The position numbers and the translations under genes are program-made. This document shows positions 1 through 26,050 of a stretch of 54,009 nucleotides of DNA, one piece after another. The number at the start of each line of letters is the position of its first letter. Positions within the stretch are counted from its first letter, which is position 1. The notes beneath the pieces were generated by a model that had not been told where the DNA came from, searched no databases, and was given only the letters and a program-made list of their open reading frames with translations. Source of the stretch: Bacteroidales bacterium (GTDB lineage Bacteria > Bacteroidota > Bacteroidia > Bacteroidales > DASVHX01); NCBI GenBank assembly GCA_038246075.1, contig JBBRRV010000004.1:1-54009 (forward strand), given 5' to 3'.

Positions 1-546
1 ATTGTATGCAAAAGGAAGTTGATACGTCAGGAAGTCGGCAGGATCGAATCCGCGGGATATCCATCCACCAGGTGTAAACTCCATGGTCGCATTCTGGAGA
101 TTGATGAGGACCTTGTCAGGATTTTTAGGAGGAGCAGGCAGATAGGCATCGCTAAGGAATTGCTTGAGCAGCTTATCTTTAAATTCATAAAACCGCACGT
201 CATAATCAGGAAAACTCATTTTAACGGATGCTCTGCCGAGAAAATGTTTCATGTCCTCATTATCGAGCTGCTGCCAGAAAGCACCATTGTACACATAGGT
301 ATAGTCATAGACCTTAGCCAGGTTCCAATGCCTAATGGCAGCAAACTCAAGTAAATGCTTTACAACAGCAACTATGATATGCTTCTGCCGTGTTTCGACA
401 TCTTCGGGAAGTTCCAGGAAATCACGAATTATGATAGGCGCGATTTCATCAAGCAGGCTGTTTAGGACATCGAGATGGTTTTTGCGACCTTCGAAGGCAG
501 CAAGCTTGGCGGGGGTGATGATGAGTGATTTCTTTATTTGATCCAT
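1..546 (-). CDS. Phage/plasmid P4-family primase (D5_N-type), N-terminal part, truncated by window edge; absent from ORF track
   Basis: Manual translation from ATG at 546 is open to base 1: MDQIKKSLII...YVYNGAFWQQL...VLINLQNATMEF...FDPADFLTYQLPFAYN, typical D5_N motifs. Confidence 0.8.
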   Translation of the reverse strand, partial: MDQIKKSLIITPAKLAAFEGRKNHLDVLNSLLDEIAPIIIRDFLELPEDVETRQKHIIVAVVKHLLEFAAIRHWNLAKVYDYTYVYNGAFWQQLDNEDMKHFLGRASVKMSFPDYDVRFYEFKDKLLKQFLSDAYLPAPPKNPDKVLINLQNATMEFTPGGWISRGFDPADFLTYQLPFAYN

Positions 547-725
547 AAGGCTTCCTCCTCCTTTGCTGTGAGATACAATTGAATCATGTTCCTTACACCG
601 AAATGTTGCCGAATTATACGAAGATATTCGGAGGTGTCAGTCGTAGCTTTGTTGTTGTCATTTAGTTTATCGAAGGGGCTGTTACTGTGAGAGGTGGTGG
701 CCCCGGGTGCTTTTATGGGTTTCAT
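534..725 (-). CDS. Small hypothetical protein of the element
   Basis: 63 aa; overlaps the excisionase stop (ATGA) and the primase start, implying translational coupling. Confidence 0.5.
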   Translation of the reverse strand: MKPIKAPGATTSHSNSPFDKLNDNNKATTDTSEYLRIIRQHFGVRNMIQLYLTAKEEEALWIK

Positions 726-1072
726 TTGGCGCCTCCTCTCTTCATAAGGGTAGGACGGGAATTTTCGGCGATTTCCTGGCGTGTTAAACGACGACCGTCC
801 TCAAGCCATTTTATAAGGATGGCTTTGGAAAAATAAACGCGCTTCTGGCGCTTCATACATGGAATTTCCTTACGGCAGATGAGTCCGTAAATTGTTTGGG
901 TAGCTAACCCAAGAAATTGGGCAGCTTCGGGGACGGTGAGGAATTTGTCGGGTTGGTCTGACTGTGGATCAAGATCATCTTTTTGTTGAAGAAATTGTTT
1001 TATCCAGTTTACATCTTTCCGGAGGTCAGATACCTCGGAAGGGAGATCATTGAAAGAGGGGATTTTTTCCAT
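722..1072 (-). CDS. Excisionase-like helix-turn-helix protein (HTH_17/AlpA-like)
   Basis: FLTVPEAAQFLGLATQTIYGLICRKEIPCMKRQKRVYFSK..L.KWL is the typical Bacteroidota xis HTH pattern. Confidence 0.88.
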   Translation of the reverse strand: MEKIPSFNDLPSEVSDLRKDVNWIKQFLQQKDDLDPQSDQPDKFLTVPEAAQFLGLATQTIYGLICRKEIPCMKRQKRVYFSKAILIKWLEDGRRLTRQEIAENSRPTLMKRGGAK

Positions 1073-1193
1073 AACTTATTTTACTTGGTTTATGGTGTCC
1101 AAGATAGATCGGGGCAGTATCACAAAACAAATAGAAAATAAATTATAATTAGCTAAATATCAATAATATAAGAAATTATTGATAAAGAAATAA

Positions 1194-1230
1194 TATCACA
1201 AATATCACTAGTGACTATCACAAATATCAC
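1194..1230. promoter_or_regulatory. Direct repeats upstream of the excisionase operon
   Basis: TATCACAAATATCAC at 1194-1208 and 1216-1230 (22-bp period); another TATCACAAA at 1118-1126. Confidence 0.6.
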
Positions 1231-1245
1231 AAGTAATAGATATTG

Positions 1246-3408
1246 CTATTCTTTTTTAGATCGATTTCGTGCACATGTTATTTGATTGCGCACATTCCTT
1301 GGTGGACCGATTTTTAAATTATCGCAATTTAAGTTTTGTGATACTAGTATAATCTCAATCACAAGCTTTGTTCTAAATTTAAATTTTTCCATTATTGATA
1401 GGATAGCATCGTAGAAGGGTTCATTCAAATTTATCTGAAACATGACTGTGTTCCCAGGTATCTCAGATGAGTTGAGTAAAGCCAAAAAACAAGCCTTCAG
1501 GTAATCTCTAAACGAATGGTCAATACAATAAACAATTTTTTTATGTTTTCCAGAAGGATATTTAGCAATTGTGAGTGGATCTAACGTATCAAATATAAAC
1601 TGTTCATTAGTGACACGCTCGGATTCAATTTCAGGGGAAAGAATATTTGGAATGCCAGAATCAGACCCAACAATTGGTATTGAGTCCATAAGTACCGGTT
1701 GAAGAGTAATAAAAATTTCCGTTTTTAAGAAATGAGCGATTTCTTGACAGAAACCCTTTAGATGTATATCACTTAAATATGTATCCAAGTTATAGTTGTA
1801 ATCATCGGGATTGAATTTAACACCAACTTTATTGCGTGTGCTTGGCAAGATAAAGTATATGATGAATTGATAGGATGAGAGAATAGAGGGGCAGCTTTCA
1901 AGAATTACGTTCACCTTATTATATATATTTTCCAAAATTGGGAACAATTCATTTTTGGGGAGTAGCTCTCTATACTTGATCTCCCTTGTTTTTGTTATAA
2001 AGTTTGAAGGTACTAATGCAGGCGAGGAGGATTTAACATAGAATTCCTGTTTGAAATCTGCTGATAATTCAAGATCTTGTCTACTTTGCGAGTCTAACGG
2101 GTCTGGAAATTCAAATAATTTAGTTTTAGCAAATTTTAGATATCCCTCAACATCCTGAATAAAATTGATATATTCAGAAATCAGAAAATCTTTTGATAAA
2201 TCCGAGGGATGGTTCGATACAACCGGTTTTACTTCTTTTATTAATACAGATGGATTTGATTTGGTTTCATCGCGTGGAACAGCATTTATAGAGGATTTTA
2301 TTTTTTTTATTTTTTCAGGGAATAAGACAGATTTGAGAAATTCATGAATATTTGATGCTCTTACGGCCAAGTCATTGCTAGACAGACACTCAAATTCTTC
2401 AGGATATATAGAATCACCGGGAAAATAAATGATTGAGCCCTTGACGTAATCAATATAAAGCGTAATCGTCCTGTCCCAGGTTGTATATTGTATGTGTTTG
2501 GAAAAAAGTTCGTTAATAGCGATGGTTGTTTCAAAAAGTGGCCTGAGAAGTGCCTTAGGCCCCTTAAGCGATTTAGAACCCTTGACTAATGAAGAAATAT
2601 TCTGTTTGAATGTTACCAAGTCCAAAAAGTTATGAGAACGGCTGAAGGCATATTCAAACTGCGTATTCCGGATTTCAGAAATACCGAGACTATCGGCAAG
2701 GGGATAATCAATATCCGGATTTAGTTGGAGTTCAAAGATTTTTCTTACAAAATCAATAAAGGCTTCTGTTTTTATGGGATATGATATAGTTTCTGATGTG
2801 GAAATTTCTGAATGTAGATTATGATAATTGTGACCATTCATATTTTCGTTGGCATTCGTAAATTCCTGTATGCCAAGTCTATCCTCAAGTATTGTTTTAA
2901 TATGCGTTGAATACTTGACAAAATCAAAATTTGAGTAATCGTGAAAATCCGAATCAATCGAATCCTCCAGAAAATTACCCCATTCTAAATTTACATGATT
3001 AAATTGCAGAATTAATTTATGATTAGGTTTGCGAATTATCTGATCATTAGATAGTTCACTGATATAGTTTGCCAAGGAATAAATTTTATTGAACATTAAT
3101 TTAAGGTTGTCTATTGGCACACCTTGATTAAGCATATTTATAATCCTGTGCTCACAGGTACTGAAATCTAATATGTCTTTATCGATTTTAAGCTGATAAG
3201 AAAATATAGTTCCTTTTTTGTACTCGATTAGGAAACCTTGCTTTTTTAAATATTCTGATTTTGGGAAAAACTGAACATCTATATAAATGCGAATGAATTT
3301 TAAATAAAATTCAATTGCTTTGATAAAATGAGAATCATCAAGTTGAATAAAGGGCTTCAGGCTGTGATTCTGACCCGGGACATCTGACAAGACAACAATA
3401 TCATCCAT
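1246..3408 (-). CDS. Hypothetical 720-aa element protein with three internal ~150-aa repeats
   Basis: Long AT-rich ORF between integrase and excisionase; no recognised family. Confidence 0.8.
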   Translation of the reverse strand: MDDIVVLSDVPGQNHSLKPFIQLDDSHFIKAIEFYLKFIRIYIDVQFFPKSEYLKKQGFLIEYKKGTIFSYQLKIDKDILDFSTCEHRIINMLNQGVPIDNLKLMFNKIYSLANYISELSNDQIIRKPNHKLILQFNHVNLEWGNFLEDSIDSDFHDYSNFDFVKYSTHIKTILEDRLGIQEFTNANENMNGHNYHNLHSEISTSETISYPIKTEAFIDFVRKIFELQLNPDIDYPLADSLGISEIRNTQFEYAFSRSHNFLDLVTFKQNISSLVKGSKSLKGPKALLRPLFETTIAINELFSKHIQYTTWDRTITLYIDYVKGSIIYFPGDSIYPEEFECLSSNDLAVRASNIHEFLKSVLFPEKIKKIKSSINAVPRDETKSNPSVLIKEVKPVVSNHPSDLSKDFLISEYINFIQDVEGYLKFAKTKLFEFPDPLDSQSRQDLELSADFKQEFYVKSSSPALVPSNFITKTREIKYRELLPKNELFPILENIYNKVNVILESCPSILSSYQFIIYFILPSTRNKVGVKFNPDDYNYNLDTYLSDIHLKGFCQEIAHFLKTEIFITLQPVLMDSIPIVGSDSGIPNILSPEIESERVTNEQFIFDTLDPLTIAKYPSGKHKKIVYCIDHSFRDYLKACFLALLNSSEIPGNTVMFQINLNEPFYDAILSIMEKFKFRTKLVIEIILVSQNLNCDNLKIGPPRNVRNQITCARNRSKKE

Positions 3409-3452
3409 GATTAAATGGCATTAATGAACAGCTAATGTAAGGCATTTAATAA

Positions 3453-4715
3453 TCATTTGAATTTGAGCAGATTCAGAGCCATCTTCTTTTTCGTGTCCAT
3501 TTCGAAGCTGGCCAGGTAGTTTTCGGTGGTTGCCAGGTCGCTATGGCCAAGACTCTCACTAATAAACTCTGTGGAAGCACCGGAGCGTTTCATAACGGAA
3601 GCAAAACTGTGACGTGCAGTATAGGTGGTAACATCCATTTTGATTTTTGCTGCATTAGCAATACGCTTTACATATTTATTAGTTGTTTTGGTTGCTTGCT
3701 GAACGAGTTTCCTTTCCTCTCCTGGCGTTACTCTTTCGTGTAGTATCGGGAAGATAAATGTTTCTTCAGTTAAAGGCTTGTTACCCCAGGTTTTGATGAT
3801 AGCCAGAATTTCGGGTGTGAGTGGAACAACAATCTTCTTTTGATTATTACGCTGAAGACGGATTGTCTTTGAACGGCTAAAGGTTATGGATTCGCGATCC
3901 ATATTTTTGTACTTCAAGCGTGCAATATCCTTCATATTAATACCATTACACAGGTAACTGAATACCCAGAGATCACGGGCACGCTGCTCAGAACTGCCCT
4001 TTTCAAGTTTAAGGTTGTAGATTTTACCGACTTCGGCAACAGTGAGCGCCTTTTTAACATTCTGCCCGGTGGGTATTTCAAATTTATACCTGCCAAATGG
4101 ATATTCTTCCTGTTTCAATAAACCAGCAACAATTGCTTTATTAAGGATAGTCCGGAGATTTCGGCAATATATGCCGATTGTTGCATCAGCTACTCCATTC
4201 TGCCTCATCCAAGATTCCCATAGTTTTAAAAATGAGACGTTAATGTCGCTGAATGTGAGAGATTGTATGTTTATAGACTTCGTATAATTCTGAAGAGAAG
4301 TGAGTGCACATTTATAAAGACTGGATGTGCCAACACTACCCAGTTTTGTAAGTTCAGCCATGTAAGATTCAAAAGCTGAGAACAAGGCCTTGTTCTCAAC
4401 GCTAGGGCTAAAGCAATTTTTCTCGAATGCTTCAAAAGAAAATACCTGAAGGTCGGTAATTACTTGCCTGGCATCCGTCTCTACCTGGTTGATTAGGAAC
4501 TTATAATCAGAGAATGGTTTCCGTGGCTTATCGAGTTTCGTTTTAGCAAATTCCACTTCTGACATGGCTGCCGGAACACCTGGAATAATGATGGTGTAAA
4601 ATTGTTGTTTCCTTTTATGGGTAATCATCAATTTTAATTTGTAGATTTGCTTAATGTTAGGCCAACGGGTTTCGAGGATAACATAAGCAGTGGCGGGGGT
4701 TTGGTTCTTTTCCAT
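3453..4715 (-). CDS. Tyrosine recombinase/integrase (Bacteroidota type with arm-binding and SAM-like domains)
   Basis: C-terminal TTYTARHSFA and LGHSDLATTENY motifs, RSKT lysine; ARDLWVFSYLCNGIN box I. Confidence 0.95.
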   Translation of the reverse strand: MEKNQTPATAYVILETRWPNIKQIYKLKLMITHKRKQQFYTIIIPGVPAAMSEVEFAKTKLDKPRKPFSDYKFLINQVETDARQVITDLQVFSFEAFEKNCFSPSVENKALFSAFESYMAELTKLGSVGTSSLYKCALTSLQNYTKSINIQSLTFSDINVSFLKLWESWMRQNGVADATIGIYCRNLRTILNKAIVAGLLKQEEYPFGRYKFEIPTGQNVKKALTVAEVGKIYNLKLEKGSSEQRARDLWVFSYLCNGINMKDIARLKYKNMDRESITFSRSKTIRLQRNNQKKIVVPLTPEILAIIKTWGNKPLTEETFIFPILHERVTPGEERKLVQQATKTTNKYVKRIANAAKIKMDVTTYTARHSFASVMKRSGASTEFISESLGHSDLATTENYLASFEMDTKKKMALNLLKFK

Positions 4716-4727
4716 GTTATCATATTT

Positions 4728-4750
4728 ACAACATACAATTCAACATACAA
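4728..4750. repeat. Tandem direct repeat CAACATACAA x2, possible integrase arm-type sites
   Basis: acaacatacaattcaacatacaaat between the integrase start and the att core. Confidence 0.4.
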
Positions 4751-4858
4751 ATATAGTCAAAAAGCGAATATAAAGATAAAAAATGAAAAAATAGATTTAC
4801 GTAAAATATTGATATACTGAAAGATGAAATAAATGAATAAGCAATGATATGAAAAAAA

Positions 4859-4907
4859 ATCAGCTTCCCAAGCTGAGGGTCGAGGGTTCGAATCCCTTTT
4901 TCCGCTC
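4859..4907 (+). pseudogene. 3' fragment of tRNA-Gly(CCC) = attachment site
   Basis: TCAGC-TTCCCAA-GCTGA anticodon arm, GAGGG-TTCGAAT-CCCTT T-arm, TTTCCGC-T acceptor 3' strand; no D-arm or 5' acceptor strand upstream (A-rich sequence instead). Confidence 0.88.
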
Positions 4908-22202: not shown

Positions 22203-24401
22203 ATGCCAACAGAAATAAGTATACAATACCGGAATGAAATAATAAATCATTATCGCATGTTGATGGGTTCCTGCTGTCACATTGATAATAAACATGATAT
22301 TAAACTCATACGTTCGGCATTTGAACTTTTACTTGAGGCACATAAGGACTTACGCCGTGAAACCGGCGAACCACATCTTTTTCATGCAACTGCAGTAGCC
22401 ATGATCGTTGCAGGCGAAATGGGCCTGACAACGGTTAGCATTGTATCGGCATTACTGCATGATATTCTGAGGGATAGCTCACTTACGGCTGCAGAACTGG
22501 AGCAAAAATTCGGCAAAAAAGTTGCTTCAATTTTACGAAAGGTAAACCGTATTTCATCGCTCCGCATGGACAAGGTATCCATGAATGCTGGAAATTTCAT
22601 CCATTTGCTGCTTTCTCTTTCCGATGATGTTACCGTCATTCTGATCAGGCTGGCTGACCGGCTGCATTTCATGCGTATTCTGGGCAGTCTTTCGCCGGAA
22701 ACCCAGCTACAGATATCTTCCGAAACTTCAAACCTTTATGCGCCCATTGCACACAGGCTGGGCTTGTATAAAATAAAAACTGAACTCGAAGAACTTTCAA
22801 TGCAATATGCCCAGCCCAGCATCTATACATCAATTTCCAAAAAGATAGAACAAAGCCGTGAAAGTCAGGATGAGTATATAAAGCAATTTGTTCAACCTGT
22901 ACGTGCTGAACTTAAAGCACAGGGATTTGATGTGGAAATTAAAGCACGTACCAAATCAATTTCATCGATATGGGCTAAAATGCGAAAGCAAAAAGTTGAT
23001 TTCGATCAGGTATATGATTTGTTTGCAGTACGAATTATCTCAAACAGCCTTCCTGACCATGAAAAGGATGATTGCTGGAAGATTTACAGTCTGGTTACGA
23101 ACATTTATCAGCCCAACCCAACACGCTTGCGCGACTGGGTATCTGTCCCGAAAACCAATGGCTATGAATCATTGCATACCACAGTAAAAGGATTGAATGA
23201 TAAATGGGTTGAAGTTCAGATCCGCACAAAACGCATGGACGAACTCGCCGAAGGAGGTCATGCTGCGCATTGGAAATACAAAGAGATGAAAGGTGAGCAG
23301 GAAATGGATTCATGGCTTAAACAGATGCGGAATGTTCTTGAAAATCCGCTTCCTGGTGAAAGAGAATCTGATACTTCAGCTCAAATGGACCTGTATACGG
23401 AAACCATTTTTGTATTTACGCCCCAGGGCGACCTGCGAAAGCTAAAAGCAGGGGCTACTGTGCTGGATTTTGCTTTTGAAATTCATTCGGATGTTGGATC
23501 AAGATGCACAGGCGCTAAAGTAAATAATACCTATGTCCCGCTGAAATACCTGCTTAAAACCGGTGACCAGGTTGAAGTAATTACCTCAAAAGCGCAGCAC
23601 CCAAGTCTGGATTGGCTCAATTTTGTAACAACATCAAAGGCTGTCAGCAAGATCAAACGTTATCTGAAGGAAGCTGAGTTCGCACAGGCTGATTTCGGGA
23701 AAGATATACTGCGCAGGAAACTCAGCCAGCTTAAGCTTAATTATACCGACGAAACGATCAACAAAATAGTTGCACATTTTAAATTGGGCAGTCCGCTCGA
23801 ACTTTTTCAGGCCATAGCTACGGAAAAGGCAGATATTTCACGCTTACGCGAAATACTTTTCCCACCCTCAAGACCAACAGATCTGCTGCTTACTGAGAAA
23901 CCATTTACCCGGCCGCTGCCTGCTCAAAAAATGGCTGCCACGCATGAAGGTACTGCCATTATTATCAATGACAACCAGGAACTTGCCGGATTTAAATTTG
24001 CCAAATGTTGTAATCCGGTGCAGGGTGATGATATCTTTGGCTTTATTACTGTAGGCGAAGGAATAAAAATTCACCGTGCTGATTGCCCGAATGCCAGGCA
24101 GATGCAAACTTATTACAGCTACAGGATTGTTGAAGCCCGATGGAGCATAGCTACCGATGAAGCCTCCTTTCTGGTTGAAATACAGGTAACAGGCAACGAC
24201 CAGCTTGGCATCGTAAGTTCAATATCGCAAACAATTTCCGACGATCTGAAAGTAAATATGCGCAGTATCCGCTTCGATTCAGCAAATGGTAAATTCAGTG
24301 GCCGCATAACACTTTTTGTAACAGATAAAATTCACCTGGATAACTTATTGCGCAGGCTCAGTAAAATTAAAGGCGTTGTAAAAGCTGGCAGGATCAGTTA
24401 A
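22203..24401 (+). CDS. Long RelA/SpoT homolog, (p)ppGpp synthetase with degenerate HD domain
   Basis: YAPIAHRLGL, YDLFAVR, NGYESLHTTV, EVQIRT, AAHWKYK, TGS (FTPQG...DFAFEIHS), AKCCNP, ACT domain. Confidence 0.95.
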   Translation: MPTEISIQYRNEIINHYRMLMGSCCHIDNKHDIKLIRSAFELLLEAHKDLRRETGEPHLFHATAVAMIVAGEMGLTTVSIVSALLHDILRDSSLTAAELEQKFGKKVASILRKVNRISSLRMDKVSMNAGNFIHLLLSLSDDVTVILIRLADRLHFMRILGSLSPETQLQISSETSNLYAPIAHRLGLYKIKTELEELSMQYAQPSIYTSISKKIEQSRESQDEYIKQFVQPVRAELKAQGFDVEIKARTKSISSIWAKMRKQKVDFDQVYDLFAVRIISNSLPDHEKDDCWKIYSLVTNIYQPNPTRLRDWVSVPKTNGYESLHTTVKGLNDKWVEVQIRTKRMDELAEGGHAAHWKYKEMKGEQEMDSWLKQMRNVLENPLPGERESDTSAQMDLYTETIFVFTPQGDLRKLKAGATVLDFAFEIHSDVGSRCTGAKVNNTYVPLKYLLKTGDQVEVITSKAQHPSLDWLNFVTTSKAVSKIKRYLKEAEFAQADFGKDILRRKLSQLKLNYTDETINKIVAHFKLGSPLELFQAIATEKADISRLREILFPPSRPTDLLLTEKPFTRPLPAQKMAATHEGTAIIINDNQELAGFKFAKCCNPVQGDDIFGFITVGEGIKIHRADCPNARQMQTYYSYRIVEARWSIATDEASFLVEIQVTGNDQLGIVSSISQTISDDLKVNMRSIRFDSANGKFSGRITLFVTDKIHLDNLLRRLSKIKGVVKAGRIS

Positions 24402-24433: not shown

Positions 24434-24961
24434 ATGACAACCCCAGGGTATATTAATTCGGGCAATAAACTTGATGAAGGGAAAACCTATCTTTTCGGGG
24501 TACTTGGCCTGGTTATGCTTCAGGATGAAAGAGCTTATCTGATTCTTGAAGATCCTTATCATATTAAGCATTTGTTGCCCTCATGGCTTTATACAAACTA
24601 CAACATTGAACAGGGACAGACCATTAAATGCCTTGTAGATAAAATCAATTGCACAGGACGCGTTTACCTTGAACCTGAACATCCGGTTTATTCCATTGGT
24701 TGTGTTTACATTTTTCCACTTCGGTCTGTTCAAAAGCATGAACAGCGAAAGAAGTGTAAACTCACCCTGACCGATACCTTCGAAAACGAAATCGAGGTGG
24801 AATGCCTTGAGGAATTTGTTGAAGCATTGAACAGTCTTGATTTTGTTAGTTGCACTGTCATGCGCATCCGCAAAGGAAAACCTGTTTTGGCGCTGGAAAA
24901 ACAGTTTAAGGAACAATTAAAAAATAGGTTAACATCCCGTCATGCAGGATCTGTAGATTAA
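24434..24961 (+). CDS. Hypothetical protein with two OB/S1-like beta repeats
   Basis: Internal duplication GKTYLF..V / GCVYIF..L and IKCLVDKI..GRVYL / VSCTVMRI.KGKPVL. Confidence 0.7.
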   Translation: MTTPGYINSGNKLDEGKTYLFGVLGLVMLQDERAYLILEDPYHIKHLLPSWLYTNYNIEQGQTIKCLVDKINCTGRVYLEPEHPVYSIGCVYIFPLRSVQKHEQRKKCKLTLTDTFENEIEVECLEEFVEALNSLDFVSCTVMRIRKGKPVLALEKQFKEQLKNRLTSRHAGSVD

Positions 24962-25033
24962 CTTCAGCTAAAGTTATGAACAATTGTTGATAACTTATGT
25001 GTATGATTTGTTTATTCTTTTAGTTGAAAAAAC

Positions 25034-25065
25034 TTGCAAACAGGGGAGCGGATGTTGTATATTTA
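25034..25065 (+). promoter_or_regulatory. Bacteroidota sigma-A-like promoter for the candidate ncRNA
   Basis: TTG (25034-36), 21-nt spacer, TATATTTA (25058-65; consensus TAnnTTTG with one mismatch). Confidence 0.6.
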
Positions 25066-25070
25066 ATTCA

Positions 25071-25376
25071 CCAAGTAAGCGATAAAAAGTTGGCAAACAG
25101 GGTGGCTGAGAAAAGTTGAAATTTGCAAAAACGTAAACCGATTAGCAGTCATAATCCCGGATCGAAATCCCGAAAGGGAAAAACAGAAAGGATGAATCTG
25201 GAGCAGGGTAATGCAAAAAGCACCTTAAAAGGCAGAAGGCAAAACCTGGGAAAGGGAGGTTAGCAATAACCTCCACAATCCAAAACTTAATAACAGTAGC
25301 TTGGCACTCCATGCAGGCTAAGGCATGCAGAAAGTGGATAGGAGTTCTTTCGACAAGAAAGAACTCCTATTTGTTT
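25071..25376 (+). ncRNA. Candidate large multi-branched structured ncRNA, family unrecognised
   Basis: No ORF >=60 aa; nested helices with GAAA and GCAA tetraloops; 5'/3' closing stem; own promoter and terminator. Confidence 0.7.
25338..25376 (+). terminator. Intrinsic terminator closing the candidate ncRNA
   Basis: ATAGGAGTTCTTTC-GACAA-GAAAGAACTCCTAT perfect 14-bp stem + TTGTTT. Confidence 0.8.
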
Positions 25377-25500
25377 GTATATGCATCATAACCTTATACA
25401 GCTGGCAAGATGACAGGATTTTCTGGTTAGGGTTGGATAGGAACTGACTAAAAGATTGAACAACAATTACGGATATACAATTGAAGAGGGCATGGTTGGC

Positions 25501-25541
25501 CGCAACAAAAAAAGGAGCTGAAGGCTCCTTTTTTTGTTGCG
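25501..25541 (-). terminator. Strong bidirectional intrinsic terminator
   Basis: CGCAACAAAAAAAGGAGC-TGAAG-GCTCCTTTTTTTGTTGCG, 18-bp perfect inverted repeat. Confidence 0.88.
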
Positions 25542-25614
25542 TTTTTTAATTAATTAATTTTTGATGCGTTTTTTAATCAATCAAATTAGTAGTGTAGTAC
25601 TGGTGCTTATATTC
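25506..25614 (-). ncRNA. Candidate ~110-nt sRNA with duplicated A-rich motif
   Basis: Minus-strand TAATTTAG (25627-25620) and TTG 18 nt upstream; two TT(G/A)ATT(G/A)ATTAAAAAACGCA copies; terminator at 25501-25541. Confidence 0.45.
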
Positions 25615-25747: not shown

Positions 25748-26050
25748 TCAATCCTCCTTATCTATCTCAGGCTCTTCCTCCTCAATATTTTCTTCCGATT
25801 CTTTCATGCTGCTGGTATCATCGAAAATATCCTCATCTTCCTTAGCGCTCTTCTGATCAATCTTAACGGGCACCTTTACCAGATAACTTGCCTGATCTGT
25901 GTCTACTGTAACAGCATAGAAAAAACTATCGTTACCTGTTTTCACCTTCATAACAAAATTGTTATAGCCAAGCGGATATTTCAAACGCAAAGCTTCAACC
26001 GCATCCGGAGGTAAGTTATTGAGGTTTATGATTATGCGTTTCTTCTCCAT
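25748..26050 (-). CDS. Conserved-looking Bacteroidota small protein with acidic C-terminal tail
   Basis: KRIII...L..KYP.GY...F.AV.V.T...YLVKV core then D/E-rich tail. Confidence 0.82.
   Translation of the reverse strand: MEKKRIIINLNNLPPDAVEALRLKYPLGYNNFVMKVKTGNDSFFYAVTVDTDQASYLVKVPVKIDQKSAKEDEDIFDDTSSMKESEENIEEEEPEIDKED

What the first reader, a model, noticed from the sequence alone, without database searches (positions are those of the whole stretch)
25071..25376. Candidate novel ~300-nt multi-branched structured ncRNA with its own promoter and terminator
Seen in sequence: a gene-free, purine-rich stretch starts right after a TTG-21nt-TATATTTA promoter and ends in a 14-bp terminator. By eye it folds into fully nested helices. 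P1 is CCAAGU 25071-76/GCUUGG 25299-304, P2 is AAGUUGG 25087-93/CC..AACUU 25280-88, and P3 is CAGG 25098-101/CCUG 25245-48. Inside is a long arm: GUGGCUG 25102-08/CAGUCAU 25146-52, AGUUG 25114-18/CGAUU 25139-43 and UUUGC 25122-26/GUAAA 25133-37. Next is CCGGAU 25157-62/AUCUGG 25196-201 enclosing UCCC-GAAA-GGGA, then AGGGU 25205-09/ACCUU 25222-26, and GGAGGUUA-GCAA-UAACCUCC 25255-74. A 3' CACU/AGUG + CAUGC/GCAUG hairpin follows. The many G-U pairs and two GNRA loops work only on +, and the junctions are A-rich. Established knowledge: these are hallmarks of large tertiary-folded RNAs. I see no signature of RNase P, tmRNA, SRP, 6S or a common riboswitch, and no gene follows it. Inference: a stand-alone structured RNA, possibly an undescribed class.
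Basis: partly seen in the sequence, partly recalled or inferred. Interest (0 to 1): 0.85.

Follow-up and report, generated by a model that had tools for sequence, protein, structure and literature searches.

The report
This gene-free stretch encodes a stand-alone, transcribed, folded RNA; related copies occur in many environmental Bacteroidia, match no catalogued RNA family, and have no known job.

Summary
The promoter, every listed helix and the 14-bp terminator are in the sequence as described. The stretch is a real RNA gene. I collected 66 distinct homologues by their conserved 5' and 3' ends. Their end-closing helix P1 forms in 386 of 396 cells, against 346.8±3.8 in shuffles (0 of 2000 reach it). 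The 3' hairpin and terminator covary. A 21-member subgroup shows 37 compensated pairs against 16.1±2.5 in shuffles.

Metatranscriptome contigs from 4 of 4 runs laid (four studies) cover only 25082-25339, and the flanks are bare.

Nothing in Rfam 15 matches the window or 14 homologue loci. Seven paper searches found no description.

A model of the 3' module hits 35 of 151 genomes of the order and 23 of 151 of the class. The core is 225-556 nt long; the window's 234 nt is the second shortest.

Conserved parts are a palindrome 87 nt upstream, a Bacteroidota-type promoter, P1, a strongly conserved internal loop and P2.

Function is unknown. My best guess is a regulated protein-binding or scaffold RNA.

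The parts
24974..24993 (.). Conserved upstream palindrome TTATGAACAATTGTTGATAA, a likely operator or activator site.
   Evidence: One search places it here. It is one of two matches to the degenerate consensus with 0 mismatches in the 3.9-Mb genome; present with <=3 mismatches in 53 of 64 family members that have >=130 nt of upstream sequence. Its centre lies a median of 87 nt (range 85-98) before the RNA start.
25033..25065 (+). Bacteroidota-type promoter: CTTG (-33) at 25033-36, 21-nt spacer, TATATTTA (-7 box, TAnnTTTR) at 25058-65.
   Evidence: the top 12 octamers listed at -13..-6 (62 of the 64 members examined) all read TAnnTTT[G/A]. The consensus TAnnTTTG is recalled; the unusual sigma factor of Bacteroidetes is described in a passage of PMC7366714.
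25071..25304 (+). RNA core, 234 nt, closed by P1.
   Evidence: Family cores are 225-556 nt.
25071..25076 (+). P1 5' strand, CCAAGU (pairs with 25299-25304).
   Evidence: 386 of 396 cells paired in 66 sequences, and all six pairs form in 56 of 66. Pairs 4, 5 and 6 switch between A-U, G-C and G-U. Shuffles give 346.8±3.8; 0 of 2000 reach the observed value.
25077..25086 (+). 5' strand of the conserved internal loop, AAGCGAUAAA (family consensus GAGCGAUAAAA).
   Evidence: GAGCGATAA in 35 of 66, AAGCGATAA in 12 and GAGAGATAA in 9. GAUA is kept in all 66.
25087..25093 (+). P2 5' strand, AAGUUGG (pairs with 25280-25288).
   Evidence: Sequence differs but stays complementary in G001 (GAUCU/AGAUC), in family f4 (UGGUG/CGCCA versus CGGUG/CACCG) and in other members (GGCUG/CAGCC, GACU/AGUC). 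The statistical support is weak (p=0.013).
25098..25101 (+). P3 5' strand, CAGG (pairs with CCUG at 25245-25248).
   Evidence: 4/4 in the window and 3/4 in G001. Family f4 has CAGG/CCUG in two members and CAGA/UCUG in one, from reading the sequences. A competing local pairing uses 25245-46.
25168..25179 (+). P5a hairpin, UCCC-GAAA-GGGA.
   Evidence: The stem is invariant in G001 and the loop changes from GAAA to GCAA (still GNRA).
25255..25274 (+). P7 hairpin, GGAGGUUA-GCAA-UAACCUCC.
   Evidence: 6/8 pairs kept in G001; the GUUAGCNAU core recurs in 6 of 71 RNAs, including members of another order (L095, L127, L129, L131).
25280..25288 (+). P2 3' strand, CCAAAACUU.
25289..25298 (+). 3' strand of the conserved internal loop, AAUAACAGUA.
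   Evidence: AATAACCGTA in 25 of 66, AATAACAGTA in 22 and AATAACTGTA in 4.
25299..25304 (+). P1 3' strand, GCUUGG.
25305..25336 (+). 3' hairpin (CACU/AGUG outer stem, inner stem, loop).
   Evidence: helices 1 and 2: all 14 pairs show changes on both sides across 55 sequences. Only 60-81% of cells pair on the MAFFT alignment, which is imperfect here; 37 of 66 fold with z<-2.
25338..25376 (+). Intrinsic terminator: 14-bp stem, GACAA loop, U-rich tail.
   Evidence: helix 3: 90.5% of cells paired, and 14 of 14 pairs have changes on both sides. Not listed by the simple scan.

Best explanation
WHAT IT IS (about 0.9)
This is the gene of a stand-alone, non-coding, structured RNA. It is about 300 nt as transcribed: a 234-nt core, a 3' hairpin and a terminator. 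It is read on the + strand from a Bacteroidota-type promoter that starts at about 25070.

It is one of the shortest members of an RNA family found across class Bacteroidia. Most members are in environmental Bacteroidales whose records are labelled Lentimicrobiaceae, Prolixibacteraceae, Mariniphaga or Draconibacterium. The family has no Rfam model, and I found no description in print (undescribed: about 0.6).

SHOWN
- The family shares five features: a palindrome centred 87 nt upstream; the promoter; a 6-bp helix P1 that joins the two ends of the core; a strongly conserved, roughly 10x10-nt internal loop (GAGCGAUAAAA opposite AAUAACAGUA); and a short helix P2.
- Inside this shell the body varies from about 140 to 460 nt. 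It is made of hairpins, many capped by GNRA or UNCG loops and joined by A-rich linkers.
- Whole modules of about 170 nt come and go between near relatives.

HOW IT WORKS (inferred, about 0.3)
- The invariant stalk (P1, internal loop, P2) is a docking platform for a protein or complex. Its AGUA/GA arrangement next to P1 looks like a sarcin-ricin or loop-E S-turn.
- The variable hairpin array is a scaffold.
- The amount of RNA is set by a dimeric transcription factor bound at the upstream palindrome.
- It would then act as a regulated ribonucleoprotein scaffold or protein-titrating RNA.

The single confidence figure of 0.6 blends these: identity as a real structured RNA family is near 0.9, and the proposed mechanism is near 0.3.
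For: NOT CODING
- The MAFFT alignment with G001 places four single-base gaps in the window row, three of them inside the core (A2).
- No Pfam hit or conserved ORF lies here.

CONSERVED AGAINST ITS FLANKS (window versus G001)
- Core 69% identical and 3' part 75%.
- Flanks 48-52%.

FAMILY
- The 5' and 3' modules pair up in all but 2 of the loci that carry a 5' module; both exceptions are cut by the locus end.
- This gives 66 distinct RNAs.

COVARIATION
- P1: 386 of 396 cells paired, 0 of 2000 shuffles as high.
- 3' module: 281 compensated cells versus 110±11 in shuffles, 0 of 500 as high; slid controls give 68-148.
- 21 Prolixibacteraceae-type members: 97.2% of cells paired. 37 pairs are compensated versus 16.1±2.5 in shuffles (0 of 500); slid controls give 8-24.

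EXPRESSION
- RNA-library contigs of 180-262 nt in 4 of 4 runs laid. The full-length pieces carry 8-12 differences over 223-258 aligned bases (about 95-97% identical); the shorter pieces are mostly under 90%.
- They cover 25082-25339 only, at depths from 5.6 to 1838.
- Nothing lies on 24960-25064 or 25359-25560.
- Adapter letters abut 25083.

NOT A KNOWN RNA
- Rfam; housekeeping RNAs found elsewhere.

DISTRIBUTION
- Order: 35 of 151 genomes.
- Class: 23 of 151. 5 of 5 loci read there have the 5' motif and a matching P1.
- Phylum sample: 5 of 151, mostly weak.

REGULATION
- The palindrome is present in 53 of 64 members at a fixed distance.

TERTIARY-FOLD HINTS
- CGCAAG occurs 48 times against 4.4 expected.
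- The body is 60% purine.
Against: - Function rests on anatomy alone. No partner protein, target or phenotype is known.
- No gene neighbour is conserved beyond subgroups.
- The S-turn reading is a recalled motif. It is not tested, and family f4 lacks the AGUA.
- The interior is poorly conserved between subfamilies. P2 has a competing local pairing in the 21-member group, and its matched-versus-mismatched test is weak (p=0.013).
- The core's folding z-score is modest (-2.83).
- RNA contigs cannot show strand, ends or level. They come from relatives about 95-97% identical, not from this organism. They begin 11-13 nt after the predicted start, so P1's 5' strand is not seen in them.
- The module HMMs were seeded from sequences first picked for a perfect P1, which is a mild circularity.
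- 'Undescribed' rests on Rfam 15 and on searches of an incomplete paper library.
Confidence: 0.6

Rival explanations
1. RNA-only 'ornate' machine. The RNA folds, and perhaps oligomerises, through tetraloop-receptor and A-minor contacts. It acts without a dedicated protein, as a ribozyme or a cage-like assembly, in the manner reported for ROOL, GOLLD and OLE.
For: - Strong excess of C-GCAA-G and other GNRA or UNCG-capped hairpins, A-rich linkers and a purine-rich body.
- Many covarying helices in the large members.
- Size up to 556 nt of core.
- Abundant in RNA libraries.
- The abstract of PMC12286853, seen in the listing, reports homo-oligomers for such RNAs.
Against: - The interior, where a catalytic or assembly core would sit, is the least conserved part.
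- The shortest members keep only about 140 nt of it.
- Modules of about 170 nt are dispensable.
- No Rfam match to ROOL, GOLLD, OLE or raiA.
Confidence: 0.2
2. CsrB/RsmZ-like sponge. An array of repeated hairpin sites soaks up many copies of one RNA-binding protein, and transcription is driven from an upstream activating palindrome.
For: The architecture runs parallel to the recalled Gac/Rsm layout.
- A palindrome lies about 87 nt upstream.
- The hairpin body varies in length.
- Modules are gained and lost.
- Tandem gene copies occur in 3 loci (L075, L104, L115).
Against: - No CsrA gene in the window's own genome G000, which is 95% complete.
- No loop motif repeats many times per RNA. CCGGA, the top 5-mer, occurs about 2.3 times per RNA that carries it (91 occurrences in 39 of 49 RNAs). 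The top 6-mer, CGCAAG, reads as a tetraloop with its closing pair.
- The best conserved part is a single stalk, not the repeats.
Confidence: 0.12
3. Trans-acting base-pairing sRNA. The conserved single-stranded loop sequences are seeds that pair with mRNAs.
For: - It is independently transcribed and has a terminator.
- Two invariant 10-nt stretches exist.
- Bacteroides has many such sRNAs (passage of PMC7366714).
Against: - It is far longer than typical seed-type sRNAs.
- The invariant stretches face each other in one internal loop between covarying helices, rather than lying in an open 5' region.
- Conservation across a whole class with non-conserved gene neighbourhoods is unusual for seed-target pairs.
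Confidence: 0.1
4. A divergent 6S-type RNA that binds RNA polymerase holoenzyme.
For: - No 6S model hits G000 (RF00013, RF01685, RF01693).
- It is abundant and its ends are paired.
Against: - Bacteroidales-1 is regarded as the 6S homologue of Bacteroidales (passage of preprint 10.1101/2024.04.05.588293).
- The genome G079 has a Bacteroidales-1 match (56.8 bits, E 3e-8, just under the 60-bit cut-off) as well as two copies of this RNA elsewhere. That was 1 of 5 carrier genomes tested.
- The body is a multi-hairpin array, not a rod with a central bubble.
- Core length varies 2.5-fold.
Confidence: 0.05
5. Not an RNA gene at all: a conserved DNA element, a small protein gene, or a 3' UTR of the upstream ORF.
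For: - The palindrome and promoter are DNA-level signals.
- Short ORFs of 46 and 56 aa overlap the region.
Against: - Compensatory changes keep helices.
- Single-base gaps in the alignment with G001 break any reading frame.
- Upstream genes differ between lineages.
- RNA contigs end at the unit's borders.
Confidence: 0.03

Closest known systems
CsrB / RsmY / RsmZ protein-sponge sRNAs (Gac/Rsm systems; recalled)
   Same: A stand-alone sRNA gene with a conserved palindrome some 70-90 nt upstream of the start, a body of many hairpins whose number varies between species, several gene copies in some genomes, and an intrinsic terminator.
   Different: No CsrA in the window's own genome G000. No GGA-type motif repeated in the loops. 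The conserved element is one terminal stalk. It occurs in a different phylum and has no sequence or Rfam similarity.
Large 'ornate' orphan RNAs: OLE, ROOL, GOLLD, raiA (Rfam; PMC12286853 abstract seen in the listing)
   Same: A large, highly structured non-coding RNA with covarying helices, GNRA loops and A-rich junctions. Function unknown at discovery, and abundant.
   Different: No match to their Rfam models. Different phylum. Much more length variation, and the conserved part is confined to the closing stalk.
6S RNA, including Bacteroidales-1 (RF01693)
   Same: An abundant housekeeping-like RNA whose 5' and 3' ends pair.
   Different: Coexists with a Bacteroidales-1 match in G079. Branched, not rod-shaped with a bubble. 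Core of 225-556 nt.
Y RNAs / YrlA bound by Ro60 (Rsr)
   Same: The stem formed by the two ends carries a conserved internal loop, as in the Ro-binding stem (recalled).
   Different: No TROVE/Ro60 gene in G000. No tRNA-like module. No Rfam match.

Membership tests
Any Rfam 15 family (4227 models) | Score at or above the family's gathering cut-off. | tested here: not met
   - the only match in the window is a tRNA-like hit at 4841-4906.
- at E<=10, matches touching 25071-25376 score <=19.2 bits against cut-offs of 45-78.
- 14 homologue loci at E<=0.01 give only a tRNA and a plastid-UTR echo of that tRNA.
6S RNA (RF00013, 6S-Flavo RF01685, Bacteroidales-1 RF01693) | Match to a 6S covariance model. 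| tested here: not met
   Searches (region; whole genome) give no match. The controls were silent for RF01685, and RF00013 does not ring in B. thetaiotaomicron, so sensitivity is limited.
6S RNA | A rod-like helix with a large central bubble, of constant length (about 180-200 nt). | tested here: not met
   The RNAalifold consensus of 21 members is a chain of hairpins. Cores are 225-556 nt.
6S RNA | It is the only 6S-type RNA of its genome, binds RNA polymerase and templates product RNAs. | tested here: inconclusive
   G079 carries a near-cut-off Bacteroidales-1 match as well. The other 4 of 5 carriers gave none. Polymerase binding and product RNAs are not testable here.
CsrB/Rsm sponge sRNAs | A CsrA/RsmA protein encoded in the genome. 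| tested here: not met
   PF02599 has no match in G000 (95% complete). The control rang in 3 genomes.
CsrB/Rsm sponge sRNAs | Many copies per RNA of one loop motif (GGA). | tested here: not met
   the enriched words read as tetraloops with their closing pairs (CGCAAG, CTTCGG) or occur about twice per RNA (CCGGA).
Y RNA / YrlA | A Ro60 (TROVE) gene in the genome, usually nearby. | tested here: not met
   PF05731 has no match in G000. The control rang in D. radiodurans and B. thetaiotaomicron.
RNase P, tmRNA, SRP RNA | It is the genome's copy of that RNA. | tested here: not met
   All three are found elsewhere in G000 above their cut-offs: contig C19, contig C203 and contig C36.
Riboswitch or other cis leader | Lies upstream of, and is co-transcribed with, a regulated gene. 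| tested here: not met
   A terminator is followed by a convergent gene. Downstream genes differ between lineages.
Sarcin-ricin / loop-E S-turn motif (local motif, recalled consensus AGUA/GAA) | AGUA immediately 5' of a helix strand, with the partner strand followed by GA. | tested here: inconclusive
   - Sequence fits in most members. The trinucleotide GUA sits at motif positions 8-10, directly before P1', in 61 of 66.
- The 5' strand continues GAG or AAG in 62 of 66.
- The position before GUA is A in only 27 of 66.
- Family f4 (3 sequences) lacks the motif.
- Geometry is not testable here.

The most novel reading that the evidence does not exclude
This would be a previously unrecognised, class-wide RNA of Bacteroidia. 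It would be as abundant in environmental RNA libraries as the classic housekeeping RNAs. Its invariant S-turn stalk would recruit a still unknown protein or complex, and its modular hairpin body would be free to expand. Its level would be set by a dedicated factor at a fixed -87 palindrome. That amounts to a new ribonucleoprotein or RNA-only assembly with a physiological role specific to this phylum, which lacks Hfq, ProQ and CsrA (their absence from the phylum is recalled; only CsrA was tested, and only in G000).
Probability: 0.35. Interest if true: 0.9.

Novelty: categorically new. Interest (0 to 1): 0.78.

Why it matters
Bacteroidia are major degraders in guts, sediments, sludge and fresh water, yet their RNA biology is thin and they lack the usual RNA chaperones.

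An RNA family found in about a quarter of the families sampled in the order, and visible in metatranscriptomes from four habitats, would be a new entry in the short list of large orphan bacterial RNAs. It also offers practical handles:
- a minimal 225-234-nt natural form for structure work;
- larger forms with removable modules;
- an invariant stalk to use as bait for partners;
- a conserved operator that points to its regulator.

A covariance model would also clean up 'intergenic' reads in environmental RNA data.

Tried and rejected
SEARCHES THAT FOUND LITTLE OR NOTHING
- BLASTN-type search of 41 relatives found the RNA only in the window's own genome G000 and in G001, 2 of 41. Sequence similarity fades beyond the genus, so I switched to motif, HMM and CM searches.
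- The pattern with <=2 mismatches hit 35 of 401 genomes, but the reversed control pattern hit 14 by my count. Of the 30 loci read, 19 had the family's other features and 11 were chance.
- The metagenome pattern scan gave only 4 loci, one identical to G001. It yielded no new close relative to test the window's inner helices.
- Paper searches found no description: plus passages read.

ANALYSES THAT DID NOT HELP
- Neighbour-gene clustering found only subgroup-level synteny: an NRAMP-like gene upstream in 15 loci (my reading of its sequence, not tested) and a large downstream convergent ORF in 15 (not annotated).
- Presence of the 100-aa neighbour protein (74 of 201 genomes) overlaps RNA presence only loosely. 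This is a hand tally and is not used.
- P2 duplex test: matched pairs -7.8 versus mismatched -7.0 kcal/mol, p=0.013. This is weak because the P2 sequence is itself fairly conserved.
- Alignment A6 used wrong coordinates for four loci and was discarded.
- RNAalifold on the 3' modules found only the terminator, so I wrote the hairpin pairs by hand.
- I did not try a whole-core covariance model, because the tool's stated timings made calibration of about 240 positions unlikely to be accepted.
- The second 0-mismatch consensus palindrome in G000 (contig C38:4089) is not followed by a recognisable homologue.
- The lack of RNA contigs over 25065-25081 and 25340-25376 is not evidence about the ends.

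TOOLS AND FILES NOT AVAILABLE
- The supplements that hold the Bacteroidales-1 and 6S details of PMC2864571 and PMC7366714 could not be seen.
Full report
WHAT THE SEQUENCE SHOWS

- TTG (25034-36), 21 nt and TATATTTA (25058-65) precede CCAAGU at 25071.
- All ten core helices are fully complementary in the window.
- The GAAA and GCAA loops are there.
- A 3' hairpin (25305-36) and a 14-bp hairpin with a U-rich tail (25338-76) close the unit.
- The core is 66% purine.

Folding energy is well below shuffles for the whole 306 nt: z = -6.15 on + and -4.11 on -. For the 234-nt core alone it is only moderately so: z = -2.83 on + and -1.5 on -. That is no better than the minimum free energies of shuffled sequences. 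Thermodynamics alone would therefore not carry the claim.

CONTEXT

The window is ordinary chromosome. The gene order is:
- relA/spoT (22203-24401, +);
- a 175-aa ORF (+);
- the RNA;
- a convergent 100-aa ORF (25748-26050, -);
- a glycogen-branching-type enzyme (-);
- gyrA (-).

The unit is single-copy in the genome.

NOT A KNOWN RNA
- Rfam 15 gives nothing here at gathering level.
- At E<=10 it gives only sub-threshold noise.
- Fourteen homologue loci give nothing either.
- RNase P RNA, SRP RNA and tmRNA are found elsewhere in the genome.
- No 6S model hits the genome.

Bacteroidales-1 is taken as the 6S homologue of Bacteroidales (passage of preprint 10.1101/2024.04.05.588293; Ryan et al. 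passage). One carrier genome, G079, has a near-cut-off Bacteroidales-1 match at a different place from its two copies of this RNA. That was 1 of 5 carriers tested. CsrA and Ro60 genes are not found in the window's own genome G000.

HOMOLOGUES
- A sister species, G001, has the same unit in the same gene order. The RNA is 69-75% identical while the flanks are at 48-52%, and the neighbouring proteins are 57-74% identical.
- Weak nhmmer hits next to the 100-aa gene in another family, f4, showed what is really conserved:
  - an upstream palindrome and the promoter;
  - the 5' words CAYCARNNGAGCGAUAAAAGG;
  - the 3' words AAUAACNGUA followed by the complement of the 5' end;
  - a hairpin and a GGGAAC...GUUCCC terminator.
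- A pattern search of 401 genomes of the order and exact scans of the species collection (52 loci) and of metagenomes (4 loci) followed.
- HMMs of the two end modules then gave 66 distinct RNAs.
- Record titles name Prolixibacteraceae, Lentimicrobiaceae, Mariniphaga, Draconibacterium and unclassified Bacteroidales. G001's record is labelled Lentimicrobiaceae.

STRUCTURE SUPPORTED BY COMPARISON

I anchored P1 on the invariant words, not on complementarity.
- It is paired in 386 of 396 cells. All six pairs form in 56 of 66 sequences.
- A-U, G-C and G-U exchange at three positions.
- Shuffles give 346.8±3.8, and 0 of 2000 reach the observed value.

The 3' hairpin and terminator show 281 compensated cells against 110±11 in shuffles. 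Slid controls give 68-148.

Twenty-one Prolixibacteraceae-type members align well.
- They give 120 consensus pairs with 97.2% of cells paired.
- 37 pairs are compensated, against 16.1±2.5 in shuffles (0 of 500) and 8-24 when slid.
- Three of them lack a clean module of about 170 nt.

Core length runs from 225 to 556 nt. The window's 234 nt is the second shortest.

- P1, P2 and P3 hold.
  - P2 changes sequence but stays complementary in G001, in f4 and elsewhere.
  - P3 is CAGG/CCUG in f1 and in two f4 members, and CAGA/UCUG in the third.
- P5a is invariant.
- The core of P7 is kept in G001 and recurs in another order.
- P4a keeps 5 of 7 pairs in G001. One natural variant turns its G-U into G-C: 25149 U>C.
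- P4b, P4c, P5 and P6 keep only 2 of 5 or 2 of 6 pairs in G001. RNAalifold prefers other local pairings there.

The inner fold of the small form is therefore open.

EXPRESSION
- Fifteen RNA runs from many studies share a small part of the stretch.
- In the four runs laid (sediment, ice, sludge and fresh water, from four studies), short contigs cover 25082-25339 and nothing else of the 601 nt laid. The full-length ones are about 95-97% identical.
- Depths range from 5.6 to 1838.
- Several contigs start at 25082-84, one of them directly after adapter letters.
- The contigs end before the terminator stem.

Contigs cannot give strand or true ends, and these come from close relatives. They do show that this unit, and not its flanks, is present in RNA libraries.

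DISTRIBUTION

A covariance model of the 3' module gave these counts:
- 35 of 151 genomes sampled across the order, about one per family;
- 23 of 151 across the class. All 5 loci I read there also have the 5' words and a complementary P1;
- 5 of 151 in a phylum-wide sample, mostly weak.

Three loci carry tandem copies.

REGULATION

The palindrome TTATnAACAAyTGTTnATAA occurs with <=3 mismatches in 53 of 64 members. Its centre lies a median of 87 nt before the RNA start. G000 has only one other 0-mismatch consensus copy.

HOW IT MAY WORK

The only parts held constant across a bacterial class are the end-closing stalk, with its large internal loop, and the upstream operator. The body is a changeable array of capped hairpins.

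That pattern fits a regulated RNA whose stalk is recognised by a partner and whose body is scaffold. I put this at about 0.3.

An RNA-only ornate assembly, a CsrB-like sponge, a base-pairing sRNA and a 6S-like RNA are the rivals. The last is the least likely.

NOVELTY

No Rfam model matches, and no paper in seven searches describes it. The paper library is incomplete and supplements were closed. I rate 'undescribed' at about 0.6.

Noticed in passing
window 1-4906: A low-GC stretch (32-37% against 42-49% elsewhere). It holds a tyrosine integrase (3453-4715, -), an HTH_17 protein (722-1072, -) and a 720-aa ORF with no Pfam hit. It ends at a tRNA-like remnant at 4841-4906 (30.1 bits, T-arm and acceptor only), which ARAGORN does not call. 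It looks like an integrated element beside a tRNA-derived attachment remnant.
   Followed up: partly
window 25501-25541: A 19-bp hairpin with A-runs and T-runs on either side. It is probably the two-way terminator of the convergent 100-aa gene, and it lies about 125 nt beyond the RNA's own terminator.
   Followed up: no
G000 contig C38, about 4089-4108 (outside the window): The only other 0-mismatch consensus copy of the upstream palindrome in the genome. A promoter-like TATATTGC and a gene with a signal-peptide-like start lie about 285 nt downstream. No RNA homologue is seen there. It may be a second target of the same regulator.
   Followed up: partly
window 24434-24961: The 175-aa ORF upstream of the RNA has no Pfam hit. 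Only its first 96 residues match the 100-aa counterpart in G001, at 57% identity. The C-terminal 80 residues may be lineage-specific or an over-called extension.
   Followed up: no
L075 (4564-5861), L104 (509-1803), L115 (4740-5997): Two tandem, diverged copies of the RNA gene about 700 nt apart, each with its own 5' and 3' modules.
   Followed up: partly
L076:7283-7662, L099:5123-5511, L110:2270-2658: Three Prolixibacteraceae-type members lack one contiguous block of about 170 nt (alignment columns about 146-330) that their close relatives have. It is a natural module deletion or insertion.
   Followed up: partly
window 25088-25092 and 25114-25118: The word AGUUG occurs twice, so the partner strands CGAUU and AACU could pair with either copy. 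In the Prolixibacteraceae group GGCUG is likewise duplicated, and RNAalifold chooses the local partner. Alternative conformers are possible.
   Followed up: no
window 25083: In run X12, Illumina adapter letters abut position 25083 in an RNA contig, and contigs of two studies begin at 25082-84. This may be a processed 5' end, or the usual loss of the first 10 or so nt in cDNA libraries.
   Followed up: no
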